A stretch of 64,000 nt of DNA from an uncultured Alphaproteobacteria bacterium (GTDB lineage: Bacteria > Pseudomonadota > Alphaproteobacteria > RF32 > CAG-239). Positions 3,888 through 42,921 of the stretch are shown here, one piece after another. The notes below the pieces were generated by a model that was given only the letters and a program-made list of their open reading frames with translations, did not search any database and was not told the origin of the DNA. The stretch lies in assembly GCA_947588655.1 (NCBI GenBank), contig CANPYS010000001.1, positions 6,391 through 70,390 of the forward strand. Reading direction: 5' to 3'. The position numbers and the translations under genes are program-made. How positions within the stretch are numbered: the stretch's first letter is position 1; each line of letters opens with the position of its first letter.

Positions 3888-4331
3888 TTACTTTTTCCGA
3901 AAACTGTCAATAGAAATAACTTCCGCCGGTTTATCGGGGATTATTTTTTTAGATTTTGCAGGGGATTCGTCGCTTTCTTCCAAAACAAAGCTCAAGCCAA
4001 ACTTAGCATAAGGATCAGCAAAATAGTTTACAGCGTCAAAAGGAACAGTTAAAGGTTCTGGTACGCCGCCAAAAACCAAAATAACCGAAAACTGATTTTC
4101 ATCAACCACCAAATCTGAAAACTGATGTTGCAGAACAATGGTCATATTTTCCGGATATTGTGTTCTTAATGCTATAGGCATTTGAACGCCGGGGTAATTT
4201 GTTTGAAAGGTGATGTAAAAATGATTCTCGCCTTGCAAGCCTTGCTCGGCAACGCATTTAAGAGCATCTATCATGACGCCCTTTAAATGCTTTGTAATTA
4301 GCTTATCGTAATTAATTTCTGTTATTTGCAT
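3888..4331 (-). CDS. sspB: stringent starvation protein B (ClpXP adaptor SspB)
   Basis: 147 aa with conserved SspB core (HFYITFQT...GVQMP...IVLQHQF..L...QFSVIL.FGG) and acidic C-terminal tail. Confidence 0.75.
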   Translation of the reverse strand: MQITEINYDKLITKHLKGVMIDALKCVAEQGLQGENHFYITFQTNYPGVQMPIALRTQYPENMTIVLQHQFSDLVVDENQFSVILVFGGVPEPLTVPFDAVNYFADPYAKFGLSFVLEESDESPAKSKKIIPDKPAEVISIDSFRKK

Positions 4332-4441: not shown

Positions 4442-5188
4442 TTAGAAAGCGTAACGAACGCCAAGCAAGAACTCGTGCGCGGTTACATCATAATGTCCGG
4501 TGTTGACGGTTAAGGCCTTTAATCCGGTTGCGCTTTGAACGGTGGTTTCTTTGACTTTGCCGTAATCAGAATATCTGTAACCGGCATCAAAAGAAACTTT
4601 ATCATTCAAGGCATAAGAAACACCGGCGCTGATGTTATAAGCGATATTGTGATCACCTTCGCTACTGCCTTGGTTAATGTATGCGCCATCACCTGCAGGA
4701 CCTGTCACTTTAGTTTTGTTCTTCAAATAAGCATAACCTAAACCGGCGCCGACATAAGGTGTGAACTTTGTGCCCGTGTTGAAGTCATAATAAAGGTTAA
4801 GCATAGCGGAATAAACCGATAATTTGGTTTCAAATTTTTGGTTGTAGGGTTGTTTAATACGGAAAGTGTAGCCGTTAGAATCGCGGGCGTTGCTGTTCCA
4901 GCCTAATTCAAATTCAGCGCGGAGTTGATTGTTATCAAGCGGTTTAACCGTACCGGCGGCAAGTCTTAAACCAAAAACATTATCTTCGTGCTTTTCTTTT
5001 GAAAAAGTATTTAAGTAATGTCCTAAACCGTTAAATGAATAGTCCGAAATTGCATGTGCATCGTTTATCATATGAACGAAGGCTGCTTTGGCAGATACAT
5101 AATAGTTGGAAGTTGTGGCTTCAGTGGCATTGGCACTTGTTGCTAATAAAGCTGTGGCTATGCCAGAAAGTAATATAGTTTTTTTCAT
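4442..5188 (-). CDS. small outer-membrane beta-barrel protein (OmpA-like/Omp25-Omp31-type porin family)
   Basis: Start at MKKTILLSGIATALLATSANA (signal peptide, GGAGA RBS). Alternating amphipathic strands, C-terminal ...GVRYAF aromatic terminus. Confidence 0.7.
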   Translation of the reverse strand: MKKTILLSGIATALLATSANATEATTSNYYVSAKAAFVHMINDAHAISDYSFNGLGHYLNTFSKEKHEDNVFGLRLAAGTVKPLDNNQLRAEFELGWNSNARDSNGYTFRIKQPYNQKFETKLSVYSAMLNLYYDFNTGTKFTPYVGAGLGYAYLKNKTKVTGPAGDGAYINQGSSEGDHNIAYNISAGVSYALNDKVSFDAGYRYSDYGKVKETTVQSATGLKALTVNTGHYDVTAHEFLLGVRYAF

Positions 5189-5446
5189 ATTTAATCTCCA
5201 TAAATAGTTAAAAAATGCCACTTTGATGAAAGGTGGCAGGAAGTAAGAATCTATTTACGGAATAGTGTAGTATATTGGTTATAACAACCTATTTTACTAC
5301 CTTCCTGCCCTAGGCAAAAAGGTAGTGTTTTACATCTGTTTTTACAGATAACCGTAAAGAGGATTCTTGACCCCATATCAGGTATCGCCTGATACAAGGT
5401 TAGATTATCCAAAATATAATAGAAAGTCAAGGTTTAAAATAAAAAA

Positions 5447-5483
5447 AAGAGCCTTCTGTTGCTAAGCGGCTCTCAAGCTCCAC
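5447..5483 (-). terminator. rho-independent terminator oriented for a minus-strand transcript coming from the repeat region
   Basis: Plus strand reads AAAAAAAAGAGCCttctgttgctaagcGGCTCT. The minus-strand reading is a GC stem followed by a T8 run. Confidence 0.45.
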
Positions 5484-5690
5484 TTGTGGCAAACCAATGC
5501 CTCAAGAATTAAGTTTATTGCTTTCGCCTAAATTAAGCAGCGATTGCAACAGGTGCAAAATTATCATTTGCATTCATTTATTTTGAACCGGTAACGGTGG
5601 TTTCTCGCCGAACACAACATCTATCTTTACTGTTGTCCTGTCAAACCTATTTCGCCCCCTACGAAAATGTGCTAAAGCGCTTTCATGCTT

Positions 5691-5937
5691 GGGATTTTTT
5701 CGCTCATTTACGCCTTTTGTAAACTTCGCTCAAAAATCCCTGTGCAGCAAAGCACTTTATCCCATTTTCAACAGGCACCGTGCTTGCTGCCTTTCATACT
5801 TGGAATTTTTTCGCTCATTTACCCATTTTGTAAACTTCGCTCAAAAATCCCTGCGTAGCAAAGACCTTCTCCGCTTTCTTAAGGTCTTAGGGTTTTTGTT
5901 GTTTACGCCTTTTGTAAACTTCGCTCAAAAATCCCTT
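5691..5937. repeat. three tandem imperfect ~50-85-bp units, each an internal palindrome GGGATTTTTT...AAAAATCCC
   Basis: Units at 5691-5740, 5802-5851 and 5890-5937 share ...ttttttcgctcatttacSccttttgtaaacttcgctcaaaaatccct... Flanks are also similar (ctttcatRcttgg / tgYgYagcaaag). Extra hairpin AAGACCTT...AAGGTCTT at 5860-5888. Confidence 0.8.
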
Positions 5938-6220
5938 TAATTGGTGGAGGCGCCGGGTACTGCCCCCGGGTCCAATACACCTATTCCATAGTGTTTTTCG
6001 TGTCAAAGTCGGTTGCCCGACTATTTCTATTATATCTCTTAAACAAAAGAAAGCAAGCTTTTTATTAAAAAACTATTCTTTTGTTTGTTTCAATTCATCT
6101 TTTTAATGTATCCGCTATCTATTCGGTTATATCATTTTGACCGATGTTAGCTCTGTTTTGAGGTATATATTTTTTTTGCTTTCAATCATTTGGCGTCAAA
6201 GTTGCAGTTGAGGAAAATTG

Positions 6221-8755
6221 ATGCCAAATGGTTTTTTTTATAAATCTGCAAGGCTTTTTTTCTTTTTTCAATTAAATCTCACTGCCGCAACAACTTATGC
6301 TTCTGTGATAGATGTTCCTGCCGGTGCGCATCAATCTTTAGACGGCGAAACTTATTATGGCAACGAACTAGAGGTTTCTGATCAGCAGGGCGTGTTGCAT
6401 GGCGGTGTGGTTTATGTTGAACCGGCAGAATCGGGCAAAGCCAGAGGTGTTTTAGACAGTCTGACCAATACCAACTTTTATGAAAATATCGTGACGGCGA
6501 AGGAGAATCTTTCTGTTTGGGGCGGAGCGATTGATAATGATGGCGAGATTACGCTTTTAGACAGTGTGATTTTTACGCATAACCAACTTTTGATAGAAGG
6601 GGAAAATCAGTCAGCATACGGTGGCGCTATTGCGAATCAAAAAGGTGCAATAATTCAACGCTTTGTCAAGGGGAGCTTTGTGGATAATATCGCTCAATCG
6701 GATGCTGGCAATGCCTATGGTGGCGCTATTTATAATGGCGGTGAAATCGGTTCTATGGAAAATGTTTATTTTTCAGAAAATATTGTTCAAGCGCATGGCG
6801 CGGCTTTGGGCGGCGCGCTTTATCATGAGGGTGGCACGCTCTTTTTGAGTGGTATGAATACGTTTGCAGGCAATCAGGCCTCTTCAGATACCGGCCAAGC
6901 GCTGGGTGGCGCGATTTATATGAAATCGGGCGATATCATTTTTTCGGGTATGAATTTCTTTTCATTTAATACGGCTGATGGTGTGGCAAATGATATTTAT
7001 ATTGAAAACGGACGAATTCTTATTCGTGACGGTGAACTTTATTTAGACGGCGGCATTATGGGCAATGGCATTACCCTGATTGCCCCGCAGGCAAAGCTTT
7101 ATTTGCGGCAGACGCTTGCCGATACGGTTATGGAAACAACACTTGTTAATAATGGCATTGTTGCTATTGAAGAGGGCTATCGGGCGCATTTTTCGCGTGA
7201 AACATTTAATAATGGTCTGATTGAAGTGGAGCCCAACGCCGAACTTTATACGACAGGCATTGACAATACCGGCACGTTGACAAACGCGGGTCAATATGTG
7301 AATGAGGGCGATATTTATCTTTTGGGGCAGGGTGTTTTTTTAAATGAGGGTAAAGCAGAAAATAGCGGTATGCTTTCTCTCTCAGATAACTCTTCTCTTA
7401 AGCTTGGCACGCAAAGTCTTTTGCATACAGGCAGTTATCAAGCCAGTGGAACGCCGACTTTGGAGCTTGATGTTTTGCTTAATCCGGAAACACACGAGGT
7501 TACGCACGGCGTTTTGGAGGTTGAGGGCGATGTGATTGGGAAAACGGGCGTTATTTTGCATTTTTTAGATAGTGATCAGGGCTTTCCGAGTATGGAAGGG
7601 TTTTTAAGTGCGTATGTTTTAGCGCCGAATGATGATTTGATGACGCCGGCAGATTTTATTGTTCAACGTATTTGGGGCAGTCCGTTAGATTTTAATTGGC
7701 TGTCGCGTTATAATGCCAAGGGCGATGAAAAAGGAAGTGCTTGGTATTTGGGCGTGTTGCCCCCTGAGCCGAGACAACCTGATTTGCCCTTTGAGTTTGT
7801 GACGCCTCTCCCTGAGCCACCACCACGACCGTCTGTTTATGTGCCGGAAGTGCCGGTTTATGCAGCGTTGGGGCAGGTTTTATATGAGCAGACGCGACAT
7901 TTGTTTGAGGCTGTGCAAAGTGGATTTGCGCCTCAAATTTGCGCTGATTGTGCGTTTTCATCTGATCCGCGGGGTTTTGTTCAGGTGCAGTATCATCATG
8001 TTGCGTTAGACAAGCCCTCAGATGTGAGAGGGCATGTTCAGGCAGTCAATGCTGGTGTGCGGGTTGTGGAAAACGGCGCTTATCAGGCCGGTGTGTTTGG
8101 TCAATACGGCAAAGGAAAATACAGCTTTTCAGGGGCAGGGGATTATCAGGCTTTAAGTGGCGCAAAAATGCGTGTCACGGATTATGTTTTTGGTCTTTAT
8201 CAGCAGTATCAGACAGAAAAATACGGTTTGTTCGGCGCATTATACGGCGGACGGCAAAATATGGGCTTTACAACGGATGACGGCGTGATTGATGAAAACA
8301 CGCATGCAATGGTATATGGAATCGGCGTTTCGGCGGCGCGTTATGTGCCGCTTGCTTTACGTTGGCAACTTGTGCCGTTCGTTTCGGTTCAGGCGGAGCG
8401 GCTAGAGATTGCCGATATTCATGATCAGGCCGGCAAAACGGCGCATTATCACAATCCGCTTTATGGCGAGGCGAGCTTGGGCGCGGCTTTGAAATATGAT
8501 TCATGTGAGGGGCAGAATAAAGCCGGCTTTTATGTCAAACCTTCGGTGGTGCAAACGTTTGGGCGGCATACGGGTGTTCAAATCACGGGGATGAATCAAA
8601 CAAAATCGCAACCCTCACAGACACTCGGGCGGTTTGAACTGGGCGCGGAATTTGCGCATCATGAGCGCATTTCGGGCTATGCCGGCGCGGCTTATACCTT
8701 TGGCAAAGACTATCACGCCTACCAATTCTCCGCAGGGGTAAAGATTGCTTTTTAG
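6221..8755 (+). CDS. autotransporter with Pmp-type (GGAI / FxxN) passenger repeats and C-terminal beta-barrel translocator
   Basis: RBS GAGGAAAA then ATG 6221. Repeated AYGGAI/ALGGAIY and FTHN/FSEN/FAGN/FSFN motifs in the passenger. C-terminal ~280 aa has alternating beta-strands ending FSAGVKIAF. Confidence 0.8.
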   Translation: MPNGFFYKSARLFFFFQLNLTAATTYASVIDVPAGAHQSLDGETYYGNELEVSDQQGVLHGGVVYVEPAESGKARGVLDSLTNTNFYENIVTAKENLSVWGGAIDNDGEITLLDSVIFTHNQLLIEGENQSAYGGAIANQKGAIIQRFVKGSFVDNIAQSDAGNAYGGAIYNGGEIGSMENVYFSENIVQAHGAALGGALYHEGGTLFLSGMNTFAGNQASSDTGQALGGAIYMKSGDIIFSGMNFFSFNTADGVANDIYIENGRILIRDGELYLDGGIMGNGITLIAPQAKLYLRQTLADTVMETTLVNNGIVAIEEGYRAHFSRETFNNGLIEVEPNAELYTTGIDNTGTLTNAGQYVNEGDIYLLGQGVFLNEGKAENSGMLSLSDNSSLKLGTQSLLHTGSYQASGTPTLELDVLLNPETHEVTHGVLEVEGDVIGKTGVILHFLDSDQGFPSMEGFLSAYVLAPNDDLMTPADFIVQRIWGSPLDFNWLSRYNAKGDEKGSAWYLGVLPPEPRQPDLPFEFVTPLPEPPPRPSVYVPEVPVYAALGQVLYEQTRHLFEAVQSGFAPQICADCAFSSDPRGFVQVQYHHVALDKPSDVRGHVQAVNAGVRVVENGAYQAGVFGQYGKGKYSFSGAGDYQALSGAKMRVTDYVFGLYQQYQTEKYGLFGALYGGRQNMGFTTDDGVIDENTHAMVYGIGVSAARYVPLALRWQLVPFVSVQAERLEIADIHDQAGKTAHYHNPLYGEASLGAALKYDSCEGQNKAGFYVKPSVVQTFGRHTGVQITGMNQTKSQPSQTLGRFELGAEFAHHERISGYAGAAYTFGKDYHAYQFSAGVKIAF

Positions 8756-8766
8756 GGATGTCTTTT

Positions 8767-10989
8767 CTAGATTTTCATTGAGCCTAATTTATTTAAAAGC
8801 TCGTCCGCTGTTAGTTTGTTTAAATCTTCCTTAATGCCTTGTGAATCATAATAAACGGTAGAATGAATGGTATTATCTTGTCCAACTTCCCAAATAGCGA
8901 TGACTAAATTTGAAGGAAATAAATCATCTATACGGTTTTTAAAATAATCTTCATAAGCTTTTTTAAGCAATTCTGTTTTTTCTGCGTTAATGTCAGGAAT
9001 ACCCTTAACTTCAATATAAAGGTAAATGCCATTGATAAACTTTAAGATAAAATCAAAATAGCTTTTTTTCACATTAAGAGTGTCGTCTAGATATTCGCCA
9101 AAAATATTAGAGAATGCCAAATTCTTTGCCCACAATTTGATACCGTCTTCATTTTCCGTGTAATCTTTTATTGTTTGAAAAGCGAGCATTTCAGGGGTTG
9201 AATCCAAGGGTTGTTGATTGCCATTGAGTTTGTCCTCCTCGTTAATACTAAACAAGTATTGTTTTTTTGTAATTTCCCTCTTTTTTTGATTATGGGTATA
9301 AATTTCTTGGTATGATTGAGGATCATAAGGTTTTTCTAAAATCTTGTAGCGCGGTTTACAAGTTCTTGTTTTTGATATAATGTTTAAAATATCTTTTTTA
9401 TGTTTTTCCAACAAAACCGTCATTAAAAACTCTTTGAGTATATGGTTTTTCTTTAAAAAGGTGTTTGCTAGAGGGTTTATTAAATCAAACAATTGCTTGT
9501 TGGCGGTTATCAACCTCTTATAATCTCTCAGAAATATAAACGGATTTGTGATTGTCGTATAAATTTGATTGCCGTTTGCTGTGCTTAAAACCTTTTTGTA
9601 TGTTTTATAGTCATTAATAAATATTCTTTTAATTTCCTGTAAAAAAGGATTTTCACTCTCATTTAACCAATCTGTAAACTTTTTCGTAAATTGTTCGTTT
9701 GATTTTGAATTTTTTATTTCCCCTTTATTTTCTATATCTATGGATAAAAATGTTTCGTTTGAAAACTTTTCTCTGACTTTGTAATGATATTCGTTTATTT
9801 CGTCATTTTCTGTTTGTGTATTAGAATAGATATAATATTTTGAGGTTACATCATTGTATTCAAGGTTCGGATAGGGGTTGCGCTTTATTCTGCCTAAGGT
9901 TTGAATATTTAAATTTGTTGAGGATACGTTTCGTAATTGAATCAACATACAAGCTCTTGGAATATCCCATCCTGTTGAGGGACCAATTTTGAAAATGATA
10001 GCGTCAATGTCATTGTTGTTTTCTGTTATTTCATCTAGGGTAAATTTATTTTTATAAACCCTGTTGGAGTCTTTGTCGTTATTGCCAAAATATTGAATCC
10101 ATGCTATATTGTGGCAATCAAGTGTTTTTTTGATGTTTGCTATTCCCTCATGAAAGGCTAGAGATTTGATTTTATCTTTGGGCGCGTCATTATCTACCTG
10201 TATCAGCATAGCAGGGTGAATACCGATGTTTAAGTTGGCGTATTCTTTTTTTATTTGTTGAAAATGTTTAATGGCATCTTCTAAAACTTCTGTGTCTTGT
10301 AAACTTTTATTTAATAGAGATTGTGGAGTTGTTTTTAAAAGATATTTGTCTTCATTAAGCAATCTATTGTTTAAATCACTTTCTTTTAAGATAACTTTTT
10401 GAGTGAATGGATTTCTATAATCCGGTGTTGCTGTCATTTTTAAGACAAATGTGGCGTTATTGTTCATCAGATTTTCAAAATCTTCGTCTTTGTTTGGTTT
10501 CTCTCCACCAATGTGTGCCTCATCTCGGATATAAATCAACTTTAGTCCTTTATCTTTAGCGCAAATTACAAAATCTGTGATAATGCCATATTCGCTTAAA
10601 ATCCGCCCTTTTCCGAAAGATGATTTGCCAAAAATATAAACTTTGTTTTGTTCAGGGATGATTTTGTTTATGCTTTCAGTTTTTTCTGTTTTTGCCGTGG
10701 AAGGCGATTGAATATATTCCACCTCAAATTTTGAATAAGGTAAATCTGTCTTATATTTATTGAGCTTTTGTTCAAAAAAATACGGCAAAGAGGAAGAAGA
10801 TGGGGTTGCAACCACAAAAATAAATTGGTCATTTGGATTGCGTTCAATTATAGAGGATATAAAATAAGACGCCATTAAGGTTTTGCCACTACCTGTGGGT
10901 GCTTTAAATTCACAAACCACTTTTTGAGATGGCTGGTATAAATCCAAAATTTGTTGCACGGTTTTTTGTTGGAGTGAAGTTAGTTCCAT
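8767..10989 (-). CDS. res: Type III restriction enzyme Res subunit (SF2 helicase plus C-terminal PD-ExK nuclease)
   Basis: Walker A APTGSGKT, DEAH box (IRDEAH), motif III TATP, motif VI QTLGRIKR, C-terminal ...YLYIEVKG (ExK). Start ATG overlaps the mod stop (ATGA). Confidence 0.85.
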   Translation of the reverse strand: MELTSLQQKTVQQILDLYQPSQKVVCEFKAPTGSGKTLMASYFISSIIERNPNDQFIFVVATPSSSSLPYFFEQKLNKYKTDLPYSKFEVEYIQSPSTAKTEKTESINKIIPEQNKVYIFGKSSFGKGRILSEYGIITDFVICAKDKGLKLIYIRDEAHIGGEKPNKDEDFENLMNNNATFVLKMTATPDYRNPFTQKVILKESDLNNRLLNEDKYLLKTTPQSLLNKSLQDTEVLEDAIKHFQQIKKEYANLNIGIHPAMLIQVDNDAPKDKIKSLAFHEGIANIKKTLDCHNIAWIQYFGNNDKDSNRVYKNKFTLDEITENNNDIDAIIFKIGPSTGWDIPRACMLIQLRNVSSTNLNIQTLGRIKRNPYPNLEYNDVTSKYYIYSNTQTENDEINEYHYKVREKFSNETFLSIDIENKGEIKNSKSNEQFTKKFTDWLNESENPFLQEIKRIFINDYKTYKKVLSTANGNQIYTTITNPFIFLRDYKRLITANKQLFDLINPLANTFLKKNHILKEFLMTVLLEKHKKDILNIISKTRTCKPRYKILEKPYDPQSYQEIYTHNQKKREITKKQYLFSINEEDKLNGNQQPLDSTPEMLAFQTIKDYTENEDGIKLWAKNLAFSNIFGEYLDDTLNVKKSYFDFILKFINGIYLYIEVKGIPDINAEKTELLKKAYEDYFKNRIDDLFPSNLVIAIWEVGQDNTIHSTVYYDSQGIKEDLNKLTADELLNKLGSMKI

Positions 10990-12689
10990 TATTTTTCTCC
11001 GTCATTTTGTTTTTGTGGATTAAGGGCGGATAAATCGTTATAAATGTCAAAATCATTGCACGGATGATAGTTTTCATTCAGCTTTTTAAACTCTAGTTTT
11101 GCTTTTTCTTTTAATTCTTCTGCTTTTTCTAAATCTTGTAATGTGAGTTCTGTCGTTTCAATATTAAATACGCGGACGGCATTGTTTGTGAGATAGGGTT
11201 TTTCTTTTGTATATGTCCACTCTATCTTTTCTCCATTGCTTCCTTTACCGTTAATAACGCGGTATAGCCGCTCGCGTGTGATTTTTTCGCCGATACCATT
11301 TTCATTATTTGTAACCAAAATAAATTTGCGCTTTCCGCCGTCTTCTTCATTAAGTTCCATGACGGCTTGCCCTGTTGTGCCACTACCTGCATAAAAATCA
11401 AGGATTGTTGAATCTTGTTTTTTTATGCCTTTAATTAAATATGTAATTAATTCTATAGGCTTTGGATTTCCGAATAATCTTTCATTAAGTAATTTTTCTA
11501 GCTCTTTTGTTCCATTACTACTTGAAATGTTGATGAAACTTTTTAGAGGACCTTCCGATATTACTTTTTTTTGTTTTGCATCTATAAATATTTTTTTTAC
11601 AACACTATACCCAAGAGATGTTTCCTTGATGTAAATTTTATCTCTTTCCTCATTAAATTTATTAAGCTTCCAAGTCCAACGCCCTAACTTATTTCCTTTT
11701 TTAGGAGGTCTTATCTTAATATATCCTTTTTTTAATAATGTTAGATTATCTTTATAAACTTCATCTTCTATATTATTTGTCTTTGCTTTTTCTATATCAT
11801 AATCAGCTACAGCAATTTTATCTTTTGTGCTTGGATTATAGTATATTGTGTAACCTAAATTAGGTCTTCGATTTAAAGTGCCTCCTGCACCTCCCGTTAG
11901 AATTCCAGAACCTTCATAAAAAGATTCCCCATTTTCTTGTATAACTTTTATACTTTTTTCTGTTTCCACAGAAAGAAGATTTTTTTGATTTTTCTTGGCT
12001 ATTATAAGAATGTATTCATGATTTTTTTGTAAATTATCGGCATCATTTTGGGCGTTCCCTTTTAGCCAAATTAAATTTCCAACAAAATTTTCTTCCCCAA
12101 AAATTTCATCGCATAGGACTTTTAAATAAGCTTGTTCGCTGTCGTCTATGGAGATAAAAATTACGCCCGTGTCGCTTAATAATCGTTTTGCCAGTTTTAA
12201 GCGTTCATTGAGCATATTAAGCCAACCATCGCGAGTGAACTTATCTCTGTAAATAAATTTTTCTGCCTTTATTTCTTCTTTATAATCATTGCCGTCAGCT
12301 TTTGAGGCTTCTGTGTTATAAGGTGGATCAATATAGATGACATCAATCAGACCTTTGCCATTTTTATCTATATAAGTGGCGCACAAGTTCTTTAGGGCAT
12401 CATAATTTTCACCAATAATCAGCTTATGTTCTAATTTTCCGTCAAAATCTATGTTTATACCTAATTCTCTGTTTTCCTTTATAAGGGCTACGGCATCATG
12501 ATTAACTTCCGGTGCTTCATCAAATACAAAACCTGTTTTTACACGCTGTGTAATTAAGTTATAAACTGCGTTTAAGTCATTATCAGCGGTGTTCTCAATA
12601 ATTTTCTTGGCAATTTGCTTTTGCTCCTTGTTAAAAGAAACAGTCGGTATTCTTTCAAGTTTTGCAATGTATTCTTCTTTTAATGCCAT
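10989..12689 (-). CDS. mod: Type III Mod subunit, beta-class N6-adenine DNA methyltransferase
   Basis: Motif IV DVIYIDPPYNT lies N-terminal to motif I FYAGSGTTGQAV (beta-class order). Central variable region (TRD). Translationally coupled to res. Confidence 0.85.
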   Translation of the reverse strand: MALKEEYIAKLERIPTVSFNKEQKQIAKKIIENTADNDLNAVYNLITQRVKTGFVFDEAPEVNHDAVALIKENRELGINIDFDGKLEHKLIIGENYDALKNLCATYIDKNGKGLIDVIYIDPPYNTEASKADGNDYKEEIKAEKFIYRDKFTRDGWLNMLNERLKLAKRLLSDTGVIFISIDDSEQAYLKVLCDEIFGEENFVGNLIWLKGNAQNDADNLQKNHEYILIIAKKNQKNLLSVETEKSIKVIQENGESFYEGSGILTGGAGGTLNRRPNLGYTIYYNPSTKDKIAVADYDIEKAKTNNIEDEVYKDNLTLLKKGYIKIRPPKKGNKLGRWTWKLNKFNEERDKIYIKETSLGYSVVKKIFIDAKQKKVISEGPLKSFINISSSNGTKELEKLLNERLFGNPKPIELITYLIKGIKKQDSTILDFYAGSGTTGQAVMELNEEDGGKRKFILVTNNENGIGEKITRERLYRVINGKGSNGEKIEWTYTKEKPYLTNNAVRVFNIETTELTLQDLEKAEELKEKAKLEFKKLNENYHPCNDFDIYNDLSALNPQKQNDGEK

Positions 12690-13215
12690 TTTCCTCTCCG
12701 TTATAAATCATAAAGAAAAACCACCTTGTTCATAAGGTGGTCGGAGAGTTAAACAATCATATCGTGCAAAATGACTCTTTTAGCCTTTTCAACCAAATAT
12801 GGTCTTGGACATACGCTAAAAGCTCCCCGACCATACAAGATGAATCGGGGATATATTCTTGCTTGCGACCAAATACTACGGTAACAAGCAAATTAACGAT
12901 GTTATACCCTAACACCGTGCACGATAAGAGCTGTTTAATGCTCCGCACCTTAAACCAAGGCACTGGGTTGTGGAAATTCCGCAACCTTACTTGAAGCATA
13001 TATTAAAATATTTAATATCTCAAGAGATTTTTATATATTTCAGCGAATCATGAAAATTTATATCAATCAAACAAAATCTCGTTAGGGGCAAAGATTGCTT
13101 TTTGAAAGAAAAATAAGTTGTGAAAAAGTTGTTGTGTTTTTAGTAAAAATTTGCTAAAGTATGAATGTTTAATAAATTCTATTATTTCTATTTCTTTTTT
13201 GAAACTTGACCTTGG

Positions 13216-13246
13216 CAGAAATTAAAGGCATTCCTTTCGGGAATGC
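13216..13246. terminator. palindromic terminator hairpin 3' of tRNA-Val
   Basis: AAAGGCATTCC-tttcg-GGAATGCCTTTTTT. Perfect 10-bp stem with A/T flanks on both sides. Confidence 0.6.
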
Positions 13247-13255
13247 CTTTTTTAA

Positions 13256-13332
13256 TGGTGGGCGTTGAGAGATTCGAACTCCCGACCCTCTCGGTGTAAA
13301 CGAGATGCTCTAACCAACTGAGCCAAACGCCC
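13256..13332 (-). tRNA. tRNA-Val (anticodon UAC)
   Basis: The reverse complement folds as a cloverleaf: GGGCGTTTGGCTCAGTTGGTTAGAGCATCTCGTTTACACCGAGAGGGTCGGGAGTTCGAATCTCTCAACGCCCACCA. T-loop GGTCGGGAGTTCGAATC, anticodon loop tTTACAc, encoded CCA. Confidence 0.85.
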
Positions 13333-13419
13333 GATAAAATACTTTAGGCTTTATAATGGATTAATTTCTTAAAATCAAGCAAAAAATATAAAAAAAGACC
13401 TGCTTGTGCAGGCAGGTCT

Positions 13420-13857
13420 TTAAATAGCGTTTAAAATTGTTCGGACATTGTCAATGTTGTCAGTTTCATAACGCGGTATGAGATGCCCACAACACATGGA
13501 GTCTTTCCATGGTCCTTTCCAATCAGCCCAACCCCAATGATATCCGTTCCTGATATTGTGCGCCTCAATACCATTGGCACGAAAAACTTTCATGGCATCG
13601 TTGATGACAAGGGCATTTTTCCAAAAGAGTAAAAGCTCTGTGCTTTTCATTAAACGCTCACCTTTTTCTCTCGCAAGCTTATCGGCATCGAGCCAGTTGG
13701 AATTGGGATAATACAGCTTGTTTAAATACAAACCGGCAACCTCAACGCCATAAACATTTTTCTTGTAGCCTAAATGTAAATAAGGCAAACGATAAATTTT
13801 GCCATCACCAAATGTGTAAATGACGGGCAGAGGTGTTCTTACCTTTAAATTTTCCAT
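13420..13857 (-). CDS. hypothetical protein (Trp/Gly-rich; no family recognised)
   Basis: 145-aa ORF with a plausible start. Composition is not low-complexity. Confidence 0.4.
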   Translation of the reverse strand: MENLKVRTPLPVIYTFGDGKIYRLPYLHLGYKKNVYGVEVAGLYLNKLYYPNSNWLDADKLAREKGERLMKSTELLLFWKNALVINDAMKVFRANGIEAHNIRNGYHWGWADWKGPWKDSMCCGHLIPRYETDNIDNVRTILNAI

Positions 13858-13978
13858 AACATAATAAATTTTAATAATTTAACATTACTTTTAACATAAA
13901 ACCCTTATTCTAAAAGTCAACAAAAAAATAAGGCAGAACTATTTAAGCCTGCCTTATTTTAACTTTCAACAAATAAAA

Positions 13979-14254
13979 TTATTTGTTTACCGCTTCATGC
14001 AAAGCTTTACCAGCTTTGAACTTGGCTTGTTTGCGAGCTGCAATTTTAATCACAGCACCGGTGCGCGGGTTGCGGCCGGTTGTGGCAGCGCGTTTGGCAA
14101 CGGAGAATGTACCGAAGCCAACCAAGCGAACTTCGTCGCCTTTCTTCAAAGCTTTAGTAACAGAAGCTACAAAAGCATCAACAGCCTTAGCTGTATCTGT
14201 CTTTGTCAAGCCGGTTGAGCTAGCAATGCTAGAAATGAGTTCATTTTTATTCAC
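13979..14254 (-). CDS. hup: DNA-binding protein HU
   Basis: GTG start preceded by GAGGGAG. (V)NKNELISSIA...GFGTFSVAKRAATTGRNPRTGAVIKIAARK is the canonical HU/IHF fold signature. Confidence 0.85.
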   Translation of the reverse strand: MNKNELISSIASSTGLTKTDTAKAVDAFVASVTKALKKGDEVRLVGFGTFSVAKRAATTGRNPRTGAVIKIAARKQAKFKAGKALHEAVNK

Positions 14255-14567
14255 GGTGAGGACTCCCTCTAAAAAAGTTAAAAACCAATGTGATATGCAC
14301 AATTTGCGCCTATCACACTTAAATTGAAACGATTTTTTTGGCGTCTGTCAAATAAAAAAAACACTTTTTTGCACAAATAACCCTGTTTTTTTGTTTTTTT
14401 GCACTATTTTTGAGTGTCGGAAGGTCAAAAAAACGGATTTTTTATAACTTTTTTGAAGAAAAAAAGACTCGGGCGCTTTAAAATTTGGCCGAGTCTGTTA
14501 TTTTTCTTTTCTTTTTTAAAAAACGGATATATAAATAAATGTGTCTGTTCTTTTTAAGGAGGTTGTG

Positions 14568-15308
14568 ATGAATAAAATATATGCTTATATTTTGCGCGGC
14601 AGCGGTGTTGGCGCCTTTTTGCTTTTTGCAATGGCTTTTCTGGCTTCTCTTTATTATATGTATCCTGTTCGTTCGGTTTTAGTGGATAGCATTCCTTATA
14701 TGCAAGATGTGGCAGATCAGTTGTTGCCGGTTAAAATTGAAAATGGTCGGATTGTTGAGCCGCTGGATACTTATCGTGAAGTCAAACTTTTTGCCGATGA
14801 AGATTTGAATGATGATGAGTCAAATGATATGTCGCCTTTTTCGTATCGTTTGGTTCTAGATACGCGTGCAGATGAATTGGACGCTTATCAATTTTCAGAC
14901 GGTATATATGTGTCGCGGCAATATATTTATATGGTTGCCAATAAAAATGTTGAGCGCCAGTCTTTGGAAGGAACTTATGAAATTGAGAAAAAAGATTATA
15001 GCGATGTTTTTGAAGATATCGTTCAATGGGCTTCGTGGGGCTATTTCTTTATTTTATTGCTGAGTGTTTTTATGGGGTATTTTGTGCTGACAATTATCCT
15101 TTCGTTTTTGAGCGCTCTTGCTTTGCATATTTATGGGCGCTCTTTAAGCTTTGATGTTAAAATGCGGATGACAAGCGTTATATTTGTTGCAGTGCAGATT
15201 TTATATATTTTGCTCACAAGTTGCGGCATTTCTATGACTTGGTGGCTGTGGTCATGCTTGCTTGTTATTTTCGGGCAAATCTTGCTTGTGAAAAAATTGC
15301 CGGCATAA
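14568..15308 (+). CDS. hypothetical integral membrane protein
   Basis: AGGAGG RBS then ATG (MNKIYAYILRG...). Several TM segments and an acidic loop. Followed by a terminator. Confidence 0.45.
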   Translation: MNKIYAYILRGSGVGAFLLFAMAFLASLYYMYPVRSVLVDSIPYMQDVADQLLPVKIENGRIVEPLDTYREVKLFADEDLNDDESNDMSPFSYRLVLDTRADELDAYQFSDGIYVSRQYIYMVANKNVERQSLEGTYEIEKKDYSDVFEDIVQWASWGYFFILLLSVFMGYFVLTIILSFLSALALHIYGRSLSFDVKMRMTSVIFVAVQILYILLTSCGISMTWWLWSCLLVIFGQILLVKKLPA

Positions 15309-25768: not shown

Positions 25769-26275
25769 GAATCGCGTTTCATAAGCTAGGAAAAGTAAAG
25801 AATTTACTTTATCGTCACTCACAAGAGTTTGCTATAACTGATGGTTAGGGAATGATAAGTAACACTTTCACCTTGTTTGGGTGAATTTGGATTTTTAGAT
25901 TAGGCATTGGAACAAAACAGGTGGAGATTGTGTAGCACTCTCCGCCTGTACTTCTATTTGTGACTTTTAGATTTAACTGAGCAAGAGAATATATAAAAAG
26001 CACTAAGAATCAATAACTTATTAACAAAACGTATGCAAAAAAAAGTAGAGGTTAAAAAACAACAATTACTTTTGTTGTTTTTTTTGCTCTTCTTGCTCGT
26101 AAGTGTTGCGATGAACGCAAAACTAACTCGCTTCGGTCACCGCTCTGTAACGCTTGCTTTGGCGCCTATCGGCGTCTTGCAAGCTAACACTCGCGTTATC
26201 TCGCCCAAAAAACACCAATTACTTTTGGTGTTTTTTGGGCTCTACGCCTCAGAATGACGCAAATATTACCATTAA

Positions 26276-26543
26276 AATCAACAACTTATCAACAAAATGC
26301 ATGCAAAAAAAGGTACCTTTAAATGTGCATTTTGTCAAGCAAAAAATTTTGAGATATTTCAAAAGGTTATTTTCTTGATGAAATGTGCATTTAAACGTAC
26401 GTTTTTTTGAGAAGATTCTCAAAGGTCATCCTGAACTCGTTTCAGGATCTCATAAAAAAAGATGCTGAAACAAGTTCAGCATGACATTTGGGGCGTTCAG
26501 CATGACGATTCGGATGGAGAACTTTATAATTAAGGAGTAAAGA
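26276..26543 (+). promoter_or_regulatory. conserved ~250-bp upstream cassette of paralog family (copy 1)
   Basis: AAATGTGCATTT at 26321-26332 and 26381-26392. TGAGAAGATTCTCA. Hairpin arm1 26424-26453 / A7 / arm2 26461-26485. TGACGATTCGG. RBS TAAGGAG. Confidence 0.75.
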
Positions 26544-27593
26544 ATGAAGTACGTTTTATTTTTAGTTATGGTTTTGTTTTCAAATCAGGCGGTGGCGCTG
26601 AATTGTGAAAAGCAACCGACATGTGAGGAGTTAAATTATTCCAAAGAAGATGATCCACAATGCGCCGATGACGGCTATATCTTATGTCCGTTTGACTTTT
26701 CCTATAAAAAATGTTTACAGCCTGATTGTGAAAAATTAGGTTTTACATCATCTGAAAAATCAGGTTGGTGTTCTGAAATTATTACTTGTCCGCAAGATTC
26801 TTCTTATACGGCTTGCAACTGTCTTAAGCCACGTTGCAACATCGGCGATGTGTTGTATGCGGACAGCTCTTGTGGCGATGTCAAAGATTACAGCGAAGAT
26901 AAAGTTGCGGTTGGTGTGGTTTATTACACAAACTGCGATGGTGGTGGCAAGGTGATTAGTCTTAAAGATTTAACGCTTGATTCAAACTATGTTTTTCACC
27001 CAACAGAGCCTTTTGGCAACACCGCTCTTTACAAGTTTCCTTGGGGACTTTCTGGCGTAACTGTTCCAGGCTTGAAATATAAGTGGGCTACTAATGAACA
27101 ATTCTTGCTCGCTCTTCAAACAAGAGATCCTGACTTTTTCAACGGCGAAAAAGATACGCAAACTTTGATTAATTTCAAGAAAGACTCTTGCTCTTATGAT
27201 GAAGGCACAAAAGGATATGCTGAGTATTGCGTGGCGACGGCGGCTTTGGCGGCGCATCAATTTTATCCGCTTGGCGTTGAGCCAAACAATACGATTGTCG
27301 GCGCAGGGCGTTGGTATTTGCCCTCTCTTGGCGAGCTAACCGAACTTTATGGCTATGATTATGACCAAGTTACGACATGGGATACTGGAAAAACGGGCAA
27401 AACAAAAGAAAAAGTCACTCAGACGCTTACAACGCTTGAAGGCAAAGCGGAACCTTTAAAAAATATTGAATACTGGGCTTCAATTGAATACTCTGGAGAT
27501 ATTGCTTATGAATTGAAAGCTGACGGTTCTATCAGCAAATATTATAAAAAAGATCCGCACTGCGCTGTCCGCGCCAGTTTGAACTTTCGGTAA
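26544..27593 (+). CDS. secreted Cys-rich paralog P1: conserved N-module plus DUF1566/Lcl-C-like C-terminal domain
   Basis: Signal peptide ...QAVA|LNCE. N-module NCEKQPTCEELNYSKEDDPQCADDGYILCPFDFSYKKCLQPDCEKLGFT. C-terminal WYLPSLGEL, YWASIEY and ...HCAVRASLNFR match DUF1566-type motifs. Confidence 0.8.
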   Translation: MKYVLFLVMVLFSNQAVALNCEKQPTCEELNYSKEDDPQCADDGYILCPFDFSYKKCLQPDCEKLGFTSSEKSGWCSEIITCPQDSSYTACNCLKPRCNIGDVLYADSSCGDVKDYSEDKVAVGVVYYTNCDGGGKVISLKDLTLDSNYVFHPTEPFGNTALYKFPWGLSGVTVPGLKYKWATNEQFLLALQTRDPDFFNGEKDTQTLINFKKDSCSYDEGTKGYAEYCVATAALAAHQFYPLGVEPNNTIVGAGRWYLPSLGELTELYGYDYDQVTTWDTGKTGKTKEKVTQTLTTLEGKAEPLKNIEYWASIEYSGDIAYELKADGSISKYYKKDPHCAVRASLNFR

Positions 27594-27597
27594 AAAG

Positions 27598-27636
27598 AAC
27601 CCCCTCTTTTCCAAGAGGGGCGTTTTTATTCTTCAA
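27598..27636 (+). terminator. rho-independent terminator after P1
   Basis: CCCCTCTTTTCCAAGAGGGG then CGTTTTTATT. Confidence 0.7.
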
Positions 27637-27831
27637 CAAAACCAGCTTGCAGTTTTTCCTTTTTAACACAAATGATGACGGCGGTTATTCAGCGGGACAC
27701 AGGCAAAAGAGCCTCCTTGCCTTCTTTTTGTCTTCCGGCACATTGTTTGCCGAAATTTGGCGTAAAATTATGCTGAGCGCGGTAGAACCCTAAAAAATTC
27801 AAGATTTTTTGAAGCCTAAAATTTTATAAAA

Positions 27832-28102
27832 TTCAAGAATTTATCAACAAAATGTGTGCAAAAAAAGGTACCTTTAAATGTGCATTTTGTCAAGCAAAAA
27901 ATTTTGAGATATTTCAAAAGGTTATTTTCTTGATGAAATGTGCATTTAAACGTACGTTTTTTTGAGAAGATTCTCAAAGGTCATCCTGAACTCGTTTCAG
28001 GATCTCATAAAAAGAGATGCTGAAACAAGTTCAGCATGACTTTTGGGGTCGTTTCAGGATGACGATTCGGATGGGAGGACTTTTTTATTTAAGGAGTAAA
28101 AA
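27832..28102 (+). promoter_or_regulatory. conserved upstream cassette (copy 2)
   Basis: Near-identical to 26276-26543 including both hairpins and palindromes. Confidence 0.75.
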
Positions 28103-32900: not shown

Positions 32901-33042
32901 CCGCTCATCTAGAGGCGTTTTTACGGGTCTCGGGAAATTCACGTACCTCTTTTGTACGCTGGAATTTCCCTCGCCCTTAAAACACCTCTATCTAAACGGT
33001 TCTCCGCCTTTCCACGGCTTGGGAGAAAATTAAGAAAACGTC

Positions 33043-33078
33043 CATTTCAAAATGGACGTTTTTTGTTTTTGTGCTTAC
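33043..33078 (+). terminator. rho-independent terminator after adiA (repeat copy also at 42757-42790)
   Basis: AAAACGTCCATTTCAAAATGGACGTTTTTTGTTTTTG. Confidence 0.7.
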
Positions 33079-33109
33079 GAATAAAAAAATCAAGTAAAAT
33101 CAAAGAAAT

Positions 33110-33377
33110 GTCTCAAAAAAACGTACGTCATTATTTACAACTTGTCAAGTGAAAAAAATTGGGTTTTTCAATAACTTATTTTTGCAAAAAAATGCACAAA
33201 AAAACGTACGTTTTTTTGAGATAGGGAAAAACTTTCTCTCAAACGTCATGCTGAGCTTTGGTGCGTTAGCACCATTCGCGAAGCATCCAGGAACAGTATA
33301 GCTAATTTGTTGTCCTGGACTCTTCGCCTGCAGCTCAGAGTGACGATTCGGCAGAGTTCGTAATTAAGGAGAAAAAA
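33110..33377 (+). promoter_or_regulatory. degenerate copy of the upstream cassette (copy for P3)
   Basis: Retains AAACGTACGTTTTTTTGAGA core, GTCATGCTGA, TGACGATTCGG and TAAGGAG. Central hairpins replaced. Confidence 0.55.
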
Positions 33378-42560: not shown

Positions 42561-42756
42561 CCACGAGGGAATGCGTCTAATGGGCGCCTTTTGGAAATGC
42601 GTCTAGCTGGCACCTAGAGCAATTTAAGGGGCAAAAGTGTCCTCACGTACGCTTTTAGTACGCTGTGGTACTTTTGCCCCTTAAATCACTCTATCTGCAC
42701 ACGCTATCCGCATTTCCGAGGACTATGATTAAAAATAAGGATTCGATATTAAAAAA

Positions 42757-42790
42757 ACGTCCATTTCAAAATGGACGTTTTTTGTTGCTT
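42757..42790 (+). terminator. rho-independent terminator after nifJ (same hairpin as 33043-33078)
   Basis: AAAACGTCCATTTCAAAATGGACGTTTTTTGTTG. Confidence 0.65.
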
Positions 42791-42799
42791 TAATATAGC

Positions 42800-42908: not shown

Positions 42909-42921
42909 GAAAAAACAAGAA

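What the first reader, a model, noticed from the sequence alone, without database searches (positions are those of the whole stretch)
8734..13104. Type III R-M islet bounded by a 20-bp direct repeat that duplicates the 3' end of the autotransporter gene, next to tRNA-Val
AGGGGTAAAGATTGCTTTTT (8734-8753, encoding the terminal ...GVKIAF* of the autotransporter) recurs as AGGGGCAAAGATTGCTTTTT at 13084-13103. The 4.3 kb between them is markedly AT-rich. It carries only translationally coupled mod (beta-class DPPY...FxGSGTT) and res (Walker A, DEAH, QxxGRxxR, C-terminal ExK) genes. tRNA-Val lies 150 bp beyond the right repeat. This is the footprint of an insertion, or a replaceable cassette at a conserved hotspot, with a target duplication or recombination-site scar and no integrase retained.
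Basis: seen in the sequence. Interest (0 to 1): 0.7.

Follow-up and report, generated by a model that had tools for sequence, protein, structure and literature searches.

The report
Restriction-modification cargo behind a new leader RNA
An intact Type III restriction-modification operon sits in a strain-variable cargo slot between an autotransporter gene and tRNA-Val, and the 20-bp repeat brackets the operon together with an undescribed, widespread ~280-nt structured leader RNA that heads similar swappable gene modules in many gut Alphaproteobacteria.

Summary
The interval does not hold "only mod and res". Its right 400 bp is a conserved module: promoter, ~280-nt structured RNA, terminator, then the mod ribosome-binding site.

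Relatives with 94-98% identical flanks carry three things in the slot: the same R-M, an R-M with a swapped target-recognition domain, or unrelated membrane-protein genes. The slot is therefore replaceable.

The right repeat copy and the RNA are present in every relative that reaches them. The left copy is one of two alleles of the autotransporter's last four codons (KIAF or KVRF) and also occurs with non-R-M cargo. The repeat therefore brackets "leader RNA + cargo", not the R-M alone.

The RNA has about 76 variants in gut metagenomes, strong covariation and no Rfam match. It precedes at least 23 unrelated gene families. In two other lineages leader-plus-cargo units are also flanked by 16-70-nt direct repeats, and one 2.6-kb unit lies in two unrelated contexts with homology ending at its repeats.

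No empty site or recombinase was found. The R-M is ordinary; the leader-cargo module is the interesting part.

The parts
5445..6060 (-). Two-piece alphaproteobacterial tmRNA gene (ssrA) with a ~260-nt insertion containing internal repeats. It is context for the locus. The stretch 3' of it is a second variable slot.
   Evidence: Rfam RF01849, 195 bits, E=1e-56; ARAGORN missed it. In L010 a copy of the leader RNA lies just 3' of ssrA.
6221..8755 (+). Autotransporter gene, the conserved left flank of the cargo slot. It ends ...GVKIAF-TAG.
   Evidence: Pfam Autotransporter beta-domain. It is 94-98% identical at the DNA level in L007, L008, L011, L012 and L013. C-terminal alleles are KIAF or KVRF.
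8734..8753 (+). Left copy of the 20-nt direct repeat. It covers the last six codons of the autotransporter plus the first base of the stop codon.
   Evidence: Homology with L007 breaks inside it, after 8742. Homology with L012 breaks 5 nt after it, at 8758.
8767..10989 (-). res, the Type III restriction subunit (740 aa).
   Evidence: Pfam ResIII. PADLOC REase_III, E=1.6e-89. Motifs GSGKT, DEAH, TATP and QTLGRIKR, plus a C-terminal D...EVK, read.
10989..12689 (-). mod, the Type III methyltransferase (566 aa). Its stop codon overlaps the res start codon (TAATG).
   Evidence: Pfam N6_N4_Mtase. PADLOC MTase_III, E=1.7e-77. PDB 7DSU Mbo45V Mod, E=3.8e-91, and EcoP15I Mod, E=4e-31.
11416..12077 (-). 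Target-recognition domain of mod (about aa 204-424), replaced by a different allele in strain L011.
   Evidence: No DNA alignment between window and L011 over this stretch. In the protein comparison the N- and C-terminal parts are about 99% identical and the centre is diverged.
12709..13010 (-). Structured leader RNA of about 280 nt. Its intrinsic terminator (12742-12719) lies about 25 nt upstream of the mod ribosome-binding site and start codon.
   Evidence: MFE -109.5 kcal/mol, z=-8.4. Terminator scan. nhmmer hit. Covariation over 40 variants: 95.4% of cells paired, 21 of 47 pairs with compensatory changes. No Rfam match.
12995..13023 (-). Promoter-like site for the leader RNA (TTGAGA, 17 nt, TATGCT).
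   Evidence: Consensus scan. The position is conserved in L007 and L008. Other family members have their own promoter-like TTGCAA...-10 boxes. Pattern match only.
13084..13103 (+). Right copy of the repeat, at the outer edge of the conserved leader module. In frame it reads GAKIAF followed by TGA.
   Evidence: Exact in window, L007, L008/9 and L013. In-frame reading. Homology with L008 ends about 10 nt beyond it.
13037..13106 (+). Probable degenerate relic of an autotransporter 3' end. It contains the right repeat copy.
   Evidence: 43 nt at 77% identity (D1). A second 16/17 match lies at 8591-8607 (D16). Local alignment score 55.4 against shuffles 34 +/- 4.2; without the 20-mer, 2 of 1000 shuffles reach it.
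13114..13247 (.). Strain-variable spacer between the right repeat and tRNA-Val.
   Evidence: Reduced to about 35 nt, with a different hairpin, in L008/9. About 300 nt longer in L007.
13256..13332 (-). tRNA-Val(TAC). The whole module lies 3' of this gene.
   Evidence: ARAGORN. Rfam tRNA, 70.6 bits.

Best explanation
Positions 8767-12689 are an intact Type III restriction-modification operon (mod then res). It is transcribed by read-through from a conserved promoter and a ~280-nt structured leader RNA that ends in an intrinsic terminator just before the mod ribosome-binding site.

Leader plus cargo form a module wedged between the 3' end of an autotransporter gene and tRNA-Val. The 20-nt direct repeat marks the two outer junctions of that module. 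The right copy is a displaced relic of an autotransporter C-terminus. The left copy is the working end of the gene.

The cargo behind the leader is exchangeable. In sister strains it has been replaced by other genes or by another mod specificity allele. The likely route is recombination that uses the leader on one side and the autotransporter end or left repeat on the other.

Shown: the Type III identity, the cargo polymorphism, the conserved structured RNA and its many different cargoes, and repeat-flanked leader-cargo units in other lineages.

Inferred: that the repeat arose at insertion, that the RNA is a cis-acting attenuator, and which enzyme moves the module.
For: R-M identity:
-.

Cargo polymorphism with 94-98% identical flanks:
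- L008/9 carry the same R-M. L011 carries the same R-M with a swapped target-recognition domain. L007/L013 carry 353- and 229-aa membrane proteins plus a 37-codon remnant ORF. L012 carries four other ORFs.

Conserved right-hand module:
- The module, including the right repeat, is 92.7-97% identical whatever the cargo. Homology ends at ATGGCA of the first cargo gene.

Breakpoints next to both repeat copies:
- Left copy: inside it against L007, and 5 nt after it against L012.
- Right copy: about 10 nt beyond it against L008.

Leader RNA:
- Fold z-score -8.4.
- 76-78 variants.
- 21 of 47 pairs compensatory. Covariation score 0.391, against 0.182 in shuffles and 0.05-0.10 in slid controls.
- An ORF starts directly after the terminator in about 70 of 85 loci. 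These ORFs fall into at least 23 families.

Repeat-flanked leader-cargo units elsewhere:
- L038: 34 nt, about 70 nt when extended, overlapping the 3' end of a convergent ORF as in the window.
- L031: 28-46 nt.
- L053 and L043: 16 nt. These two loci share only a 2602-nt, 97.6% identical block that starts at the upstream repeat and ends at the downstream repeat.
- L053 and L036 share a left flank but differ in cargo.
Against: - No empty site (autotransporter end, single repeat, tRNA-Val) was found in any relative.
- The outgroup L010 and L007/L013 end in KVRF with no left copy. The left copy could therefore be derived, copied from the right copy, rather than ancestral.
- Most leader-cargo loci show no flanking repeat above the shuffle level: mean best match 13.7 nt against 14.2 for the maximum of five shuffles.
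- The repeat sequence differs between lineages, and no recombinase is adjacent in the window (where only the top 25 of 72 families were listed).
- A 20-mer pair with one mismatch is not improbable window-wide.
- Promoter and terminator are pattern matches only. There are no expression data.
Confidence: 0.55

Rival explanations
1. A 4.3-kb R-M islet inserted as one piece, by an integrase that was later lost. The 20-bp repeat is its target-site duplication or att scar, and the islet contains only mod and res.
For: The repeat brackets the AT-rich genes. The R-M family is found in unrelated contexts, some next to resolvases.
Against: - The right copy and the 400-bp leader module persist unchanged in L007/L013, which lack both the R-M and the left copy.
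- L012 has the left copy with different cargo.
- L010 has the R-M at the same junction without the left copy.
- The mobile R-M copies elsewhere (L118-L123) carry neither the leader nor the repeat.
Confidence: 0.1
2. Patch conversion. The right copy is an old part of the leader's upstream region. The autotransporter originally ended in KVRF. In the KIAF lineage the last 11 nt (GATTGCTTTTT) were copied from the right copy by microhomology-primed gene conversion or template switching at AGGGG(T/C)AAA, or by a deletion that fused the gene to a second right-copy unit. The repeat is then a by-product of cargo turnover, not an insertion footprint.
For: - KVRF is shared by the distant L010 and by L007/L013 with homologous DNA (AAAGTGAGGTT).
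- The first 9 nt of the left copy are ancestral autotransporter sequence and match the right copy at 8 of 9 positions.
- Identity is 95% in the 20-mer but 61% in the 23 nt upstream of it.
Against: - It does not explain why the right copy's flank resembles the autotransporter 3' end.
- It does not explain why the right copy is followed by an in-frame stop.
- It does not explain why other lineages also have repeats flanking leader-cargo units.
Confidence: 0.25
3. Coincidence. The two 20-mers are unrelated T-rich sequences that happen to match. The locus is simply a recombination hotspot between conserved flanks.
For: Markov-2 simulations give 0.63 such pairs per 64-kb window. Nine of the 20 nt are ordinary autotransporter sequence.
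Against: - Both copies sit at strain-to-strain homology breakpoints.
- An in-frame stop follows the right copy, and its flank shows similarity to the autotransporter 3' end (p about 0.002).
- The right copy is perfectly conserved in a 92.7%-identical region.
- The same kind of arrangement recurs in L038 and L031/L043/L053.
Confidence: 0.12
4. The structured element is not a leader but an independent small RNA gene, or a single-stranded-DNA recombination end. It attracts insertions downstream of itself, as tRNA and tmRNA genes do. The R-M merely landed next to it.
For: - It has its own promoter-like site and terminator.
- tRNA genes, when nearby, are always upstream of it (6 lineages). In L010 it follows ssrA.
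- Recombinase genes lie upstream in two lineages (a 517-aa serine and a 199-aa tyrosine recombinase, assigned from their sequences by eye and not tested).
Against: - Cargo ORFs begin about 25-60 nt after the terminator with only a ribosome-binding site between them, in about 70 of 85 loci.
- Many pairs of loci share only a block running from within the leader into the start of the coding sequence.
- G-U pairs are strand-specific, which favours RNA over single-stranded DNA.
Confidence: 0.2

Closest known systems
Type III restriction-modification systems (EcoP15I; Mbo45V of Mycoplasma bovis, PDB 7DSU, bioRxiv 10.64898/2026.05.01.722158)
   Same: A beta-class Mod with DPPY, then the target-recognition domain, then FxGSGTT. 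Res carries SF2 helicase motifs. The order is mod then res, with overlapping stop and start codons. The Mod target-recognition domain varies between strains, as in known mod alleles.
   Different: Res is short (740 aa) and gives no sequence hit to any solved structure. No simple-sequence repeat for phase variation was found. The operon sits behind a structured leader RNA, which is not a described feature of Type III systems to my knowledge.
Minimal mobile elements of Neisseria (cassettes between conserved flanking genes, exchanged by transformation and homologous recombination; from my own knowledge)
   Same: Alternative, unrelated gene sets, including R-M systems, occupy one site between conserved flanks in closely related strains. 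There are no mobility genes on board.
   Different: Here one flank is a conserved structured-RNA module that also occurs at other loci and in many genomes with other cargoes. Direct repeats bracket the unit.
Integron gene cassettes and attC clusters lacking an integrase (CALINs)
   Same: Small swappable units of one to two genes expressed from an upstream platform. Repeats lie at unit boundaries. In L031/L053 the tail forms an inverted repeat with the boundary sequence (CAGCCAA...TTGGCTG).
   Different: No intI or attI was found. Each unit carries its own promoter and a 280-nt RNA. The boundary repeats are lineage-specific and are not a GTTRRRY core. The cargo reaches 4 kb.
tRNA- and tmRNA-linked genomic islands
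   Same: The module lies directly 3' of tRNA-Val, and 3' of ssrA in L010. It is AT-rich and strain-variable.
   Different: The flanking repeat is not the 3' end of the tRNA. There is no integrase. The distal junction lies in the 3' end of a protein-coding gene.
Conserved 5' leaders that license expression of accessory or surface-gene operons (RfaH ops/JUMPStart, EAR RNA, riboswitch attenuators; from my own knowledge)
   Same: A conserved element in the 5' untranslated region of surface-protein, glycosyltransferase and foreign genes. It ends in a terminator, which is the usual expression platform.
   Different: It is much larger and more structured than ops. It has no sequence or structure match in Rfam 15. 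The regulon is too heterogeneous for an obvious metabolite ligand.

Membership tests
Type III R-M | Mod is a beta-class N6-adenine methyltransferase with the order motif IV (DPPY), then the target-recognition domain, then motif I (FxGxG). | tested here: met
   DPPY at aa 121-124 and DFYAGSGTTG at about aa 430-439, seen in the alignments. Pfam PF01555. PADLOC MTase_III, E=1.7e-77.
Type III R-M | Res has SF2 helicase motifs (Walker A, DEAH, motif VI). | tested here: met
   GSGKT, DEAH and QTLGRIKR read. Pfam ResIII. PADLOC REase_III, E=1.6e-89, covering 1-685 of 740 aa.
Type III R-M | Res has a C-terminal PD-(D/E)xK nuclease. | tested here: inconclusive
   A D...EVK motif is visible near aa 640-660. 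No Pfam or PDB match to a nuclease domain was obtained.
Type III R-M | mod lies upstream of res in one operon. | tested here: met
   TAATG overlap at 10987-10991, with GGAG 8 nt upstream of the res ATG.
Type III R-M | ATP-dependent cleavage that needs two inversely oriented unmethylated sites, with hemi-methylation of one strand. | not testable with these tools
   Needs biochemistry or methylome data.
tRNA-targeting integrative island | The flanking direct repeat is a copy of the 3' part of the tRNA gene, and an integrase lies next to the tRNA. | tested here: not met
   No repeat of the tRNA-Val 3' end in 8000-14000. No integrase ORF lies between 8756 and 13255.
Integron cassette / CALIN | attC sites with inverse-core and core sites (RYYYAAC...GTTRRRY), and promoterless cassettes. 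| tested here: not met
   The boundary repeats AAAAAGCAATCTTTGCCCCT, TTGGCTGATAAGGAAA... and ACAACCGGCGG... share no core. Each unit has its own promoter-like site. No dedicated attC model was run.
Cassette at a conserved hotspot (minimal-mobile-element-like) | Different gene sets occupy the same site between conserved flanks in close relatives, with no mobility genes inside. | tested here: met
   Window, L008 and L011 against L007/L013 against L012.
Any Rfam 15 RNA family (for the 12709-13010 element) | Covariance-model match. | tested here: not met
   No hit at E<=1 on 6.5 kb. Only a chance PyrR match (E=2.8) on 421 nt. No hit on six other loci that carry the RNA.
Cis-regulatory leader / attenuator RNA | A conserved structure supported by covariation, located 5' of and on the same strand as the regulated gene, ending in an expression platform. 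| tested here: met
   covariation; an ORF follows the terminator in about 70 of 85 loci; terminator. The ligand or effector and actual read-through could not be tested.

The most novel reading that the evidence does not exclude
The ~280-nt RNA defines a previously undescribed class of small, recombinase-less 'leader-cargo' modules in gut Alphaproteobacteria. Each module is a discrete unit flanked by direct repeats, and carries its own promoter and a structured leader. The modules deliver, swap and conditionally express contingency genes: autotransporters, glycosyltransferases, nucleases and this Type III R-M. They sit at the 3' ends of genes and of tRNA or tmRNA loci. The RNA would serve both as a regulatory attenuator and as the portable homology or recognition handle for cargo exchange.
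Probability: 0.3. Interest if true: 0.8.

Novelty: new variant of a known kind. Interest (0 to 1): 0.55.

Why it matters
The R-M itself is routine: it adds one more strain-variable Type III system, with swapped mod specificity alleles. The value lies in what the repeat actually brackets.

A large, strongly covarying RNA that is absent from Rfam is found upstream of at least 23 unrelated gene families in uncultured gut Alphaproteobacteria. It is associated with cargo replacement between near-identical strains. In one lineage it is part of a 2.6-kb unit present in unrelated contexts, with homology ending at its terminal repeats.

If confirmed, this gives two things:
- A new candidate regulatory RNA with a testable expression platform.
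- A handle on how these poorly studied gut bacteria shuffle surface and defence genes without classical mobile-element machinery.

Tried and rejected
- Same-species contigs found through the exact Mod, 145-aa and HU proteins (L001-L006) were 100% identical to the window and gave no information.
- The 80-aa and 85-aa ORFs in 12737-12999 have no Pfam match and lie in the structured RNA. I treated them as spurious.
- Known uptake sequences (Haemophilus USS, Neisseria DUS variants) are absent or not enriched.
- The repeat is not a conserved operator upstream of the leader in other lineages. The best matches there have at least 6 mismatches.
- A guide-RNA idea (bridge-RNA-like pairing between the leader and the repeat or target) found no consistent complementarity in three lineages. 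The hypervariable stem also differs between the window and L008, which share the same right copy.
- No second leader copy exists in the 64-kb window. The leader probe found nothing in viral contigs.
- The 37-codon remnant ORF after the leader in L007/L012/L013 matches nothing else fetched.
- Literature searches for this RNA found nothing relevant.
- The antiterminator pairing (GGUGCGGAG with CUCCGACCACC) was examined by eye in alignment A3. Covariation was not clean, so I make no claim.
Full report
**1. Observation check**

The two 20-mers are at the stated coordinates (8734-8753 and 13084-13103) and differ at one base. They are the only matches in the window at up to three mismatches.

The left copy encodes the end of an 844-aa autotransporter...GVKIAF, plus the T of its TAG stop.

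Between the copies lie res (8767-10989, minus strand, 740 aa) and mod (10989-12689, minus strand, 566 aa). They overlap as TAATG.

GC content is 0.31 for res and 0.32 for mod. The window as a whole is 0.415 and the autotransporter gene is 0.467.

tRNA-Val(TAC) is at 13256-13332 on the minus strand.

One caveat applies. Markov-2 simulations of a 64-kb sequence give on average 0.63 pairs of 20-mers with at most one mismatch. The repeat is therefore not significant by itself, and its weight comes from where it sits.

**2. mod and res are a genuine Type III pair**

- Mod matches Pfam N6_N4_Mtase, PADLOC MTase_III (E=1.7e-77), the solved Mod of the Type III enzyme Mbo45V (7DSU, E=3.8e-91) and EcoP15I Mod. 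Mbo45V is described in bioRxiv 10.64898/2026.05.01.722158.
- Res matches Pfam ResIII and PADLOC REase_III (E=1.6e-89). It shows GSGKT, DEAH, TATP and QTLGRIKR motifs and a C-terminal D...EVK. It has no sequence hit to any solved structure.
- TRF found no simple-sequence repeat in the operon.

**3. The interval holds more than mod and res**

Positions 12690-13083 contain three further features on the minus strand:

- a promoter-like site (TTGAGA, 17 nt, TATGCT; 13023-12995);
- a region that folds far better than shuffled sequence (-109.5 kcal/mol, z=-8.4);
- an intrinsic terminator (12742-12719) about 25 nt before the mod ribosome-binding site.

Rfam 15 has no match, even when only 421 nt are searched.

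**4. What relatives show**

The organism is an uncultured gut alphaproteobacterium. The only hit in the species-level genome set is a MAG titled 'uncultured Alphaproteobacteria bacterium', isolate Lapin-021 bin60 (L007).

Contigs encoding the same autotransporter cluster gave the following:

| Locus | DNA identity of flanks to the window | Cargo in the slot | Autotransporter end |
|---|---|---|---|
| L008/L009 | about 98% | same R-M | KIAF |
| L011 | 93% | same R-M; Mod N- and C-terminal parts near-identical, central target-recognition domain (aa 204-424) different | KIAF |
| L007/L013 | 94% | two paralogous membrane-protein genes plus a 37-codon remnant ORF | KVRF |
| L012 | 96-98% | four other ORFs, partly related to those of L007 | KIAF |

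The slot is therefore a replaceable-cargo site.

The family of this R-M is itself horizontally mobile. Copies about 75% identical at the DNA level lie in unrelated contexts, some next to resolvases: L118, L119, L121 and L122/123.

A distant relative, L010, has an autotransporter 52% identical at the protein level. It carries the R-M at the same junction.

**5. What the repeat does in relatives**

The right copy is exact in every locus that reaches it (window, L007, L008/9, L013). It lies in a block of about 500 bp that is 92.7-97% identical whatever the cargo. That block ends at ATGGCA of the first cargo gene.

The left copy is absent from L007, L013 and L010. Their autotransporters end in ...KVRF, with homologous DNA AAAGTGAGGTT. 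The left copy is present in L012, which has non-R-M cargo. All four combinations of gene end and cargo type therefore exist.

Homology breakpoints between strains fall close to both copies:

- inside the left copy, after 8742, against L007;
- 5 nt after the left copy, at 8758, against L012;
- about 10 nt beyond the right copy, at 13113, against L008, where the spacer to tRNA-Val shrinks to about 35 nt.

In frame, the right copy reads GAKIAF followed by a stop. Its upstream flank keeps weak colinear similarity to the autotransporter 3' end. D1 gives 43 nt at 77%. In one search, 2 of 1000 shuffles reach the observed score once the 20-mer is removed.

**6. The RNA is a widespread family**

An exact 20-mer from its core (TGGTCGGGGAGCTTTTAGCG) matched 104 stretches in metagenome contigs, mostly human gut. 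This yielded 76-78 distinct variants that are 55-72% identical to the window copy.

Structure support:

- RNAalifold on 40 variants predicts 47 pairs, 21 of them with compensatory changes.
- 95.4% of cells are paired, against 83.6% in shuffles.
- The covariation score is 0.391, against 0.182 in shuffles and 0.05-0.10 in slid controls.
- One 8-bp long-range helix is hypervariable. Even the window and L008/L007 differ there by five fully compensated positions.

Six other loci also gave no Rfam hit.

Genomic context:

- In about 70 of 85 loci an ORF starts right after the terminator on the same strand.
- These ORFs fall into at least 23 families: autotransporters of about 910 aa (24 loci), PLD/DrmC-like nucleases (10), glycosyltransferases, ankyrin, MORN and bundlin-like proteins, HTH proteins, a PD-(D/E)XK protein and, only in this lineage, Type III mod.
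- Many pairs of loci share only the block running from within the leader to the first codons of the cargo.
- When a tRNA lies within 1.5 kb, it is always upstream of the RNA (six lineages).
- In L010 a copy follows the tmRNA gene.

**7. Repeat-flanked leader-cargo units recur**

I scanned 56 loci for direct repeats, with one copy 150-450 nt upstream of the core and the other downstream of the cargo. The window lineage was recovered (20-21 nt). Two independent cases were also found.

- L038 has 34 nt, about 70 nt when extended, at -233 and +810 around the leader plus an HTH gene. The distal copy overlaps the 3' end of a convergent ORF, as in the window.
- L031 has 28-46 nt at -290 and +1626. 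L053 and L043 carry the same motif as 16 nt at -290 and +2293.

L053 and L043 share nothing except a 2602-nt, 97.6%-identical block. It begins at the upstream repeat and ends at the downstream repeat.

L031 and L053 share only the left 432 nt (repeat, promoter, leader) and the right 364 nt (tail, repeat), with different cargo between them. L053 and L036 share a left flank but differ in cargo.

Most other loci show no repeat above the shuffle level.

**8. Interpretation**

The best reading is that the repeat brackets a module made of 'leader RNA + cargo', not the R-M as such.

The module sits 3' of tRNA-Val and abuts the end of the autotransporter gene. The right copy is the displaced relic of a gene terminus and the left copy is the working terminus.

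Cargo behind the leader is exchanged between strains, with crossovers at the end of the leader and at or near the left copy. This explains how the right copy and the leader persist with other cargoes.

The RNA most likely acts in cis as a transcription attenuator for whatever follows it.

- Shown: steps 1-7 above.
- Inferred: that the repeat arose at insertion, the attenuator function, and the recombination mechanism.

No recombinase gene is evident near the site. A Pfam scan of 39 window ORFs listed only housekeeping families among its top 25 of 72.

**9. Rivals**

- The literal 'R-M islet with target-site duplication' model is contradicted by L007, L012 and L010.
- A patch-conversion model remains live. 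In it KVRF is ancestral and the last 11 nt of the gene were copied from the right copy through the AGGGG(T/C)AAA microhomology. It fits the outgroup and the uneven identity, 95% in the 20-mer against 61% just upstream.
- Pure coincidence cannot be excluded on statistics alone. It does not explain the breakpoints, the in-frame stop, the flank similarity or the recurrence elsewhere.
- The RNA could instead be an independent small RNA or a recombination end. The tight spacing between terminator, ribosome-binding site and ORF argues for a leader. So do the shared blocks running from the leader into the coding sequence, and the strand-specific G-U pairs.

**10. Comparison, novelty and limits**

The R-M is a new member of a known family. 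The site behaves like the minimal mobile elements of Neisseria (my own knowledge).

It fails the defining tests for a tRNA-targeting island: the repeat is not derived from the tRNA and there is no integrase. It also fails those for integron cassettes: there is no common core site and each unit has its own promoter.

The leader RNA matches no Rfam family. The combination of a conserved structured leader heading swappable, sometimes repeat-bounded cargo units is the unusual part.

Limits:

- All relatives are metagenome contigs.
- The RNA set was seeded with one exact 20-mer.
- No empty site was found.
- No expression or methylation data are available.

Noticed in passing
window 12709-13010 (-); also L014-L117: A structured RNA of about 280 nt with its own promoter-like site and a terminator. 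It is not in Rfam 15, has about 76 variants in gut metagenomes and shows strong covariation. It sits directly upstream of at least 23 unrelated gene families.
   Followed up: yes
window 5445-6060 (-): Two-piece alphaproteobacterial tmRNA gene (RF01849, 195 bits) that ARAGORN missed. It is about 260 nt longer than the model because of an insertion with three internal repeats (5688, 5799, 5901). SspB is encoded nearby at 3888-4331.
   Followed up: partly
window 4442-5221 (-), compared with L011, L007/L013 and L010: The stretch 3' of ssrA is a second variable slot. It holds an Opa-like OMP gene in the window, L008 and L012. Nothing is called there in L011. L007/L013 have other ORFs, and L010 has a copy of the leader RNA.
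   Followed up: partly
window 11416-12077 against L011 15193-15800: The Mod target-recognition domain (aa 204-424) is swapped between strains that are otherwise about 99% identical in Mod. This implies different methylation specificities.
   Followed up: yes
window 26050-28250, 33030-33420, 42610-44640, 62800-63030: Four or more paralogous genes of unknown function (349, 308, 394 and 408 aa; no Pfam match) share conserved 5' regions, ribosome-binding sites and first codons. Palindromic elements such as TCTCAAAAAAACGTACGTTTTTTTGAGA and AAAGGTACCTTT recur upstream of them.
   Followed up: partly
window 13219-14654 against L007 9206-10640: Mosaic divergence between the window and L007. The autotransporter and leader module are 93-94% identical. 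The adjacent tRNA-Val, 145-aa protein and HU region is only 75% identical. Recombination between lineages is implied.
   Followed up: no
L034 1890-2201 and 10173-10487; contig OKWR01000399.1 (L020, L085): Two copies of the leader RNA lie within about 8 kb on one contig, each followed by a different gene.
   Followed up: partly
L014 group (about -2143 to -590 relative to the RNA) and L034 group (about -1776 to -1177): A 517-aa ORF that looks like a large serine recombinase, with ParB-like ORFs beside it (8 loci), and a 199-aa ORF that looks like a FimB-sized tyrosine recombinase (7 loci), lie divergently upstream of the leader RNA. The identifications are by eye from the sequences and were not scanned against Pfam.
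   Followed up: no
L007 11419-11529; L012 14267-14377; L013 7834-7944: A 37-codon remnant ORF (MANNEATTDLWVYELLKDANL...) directly follows the leader's ribosome-binding site ahead of the current cargo. It suggests an earlier, now truncated, cargo gene. It has no match among the fetched loci.
   Followed up: partly
L122 305-7014 and L123: A close homologue (75%) of this R-M is flanked by three small resolvase-family genes, which suggests a mobile or invertible element in another organism.
   Followed up: no
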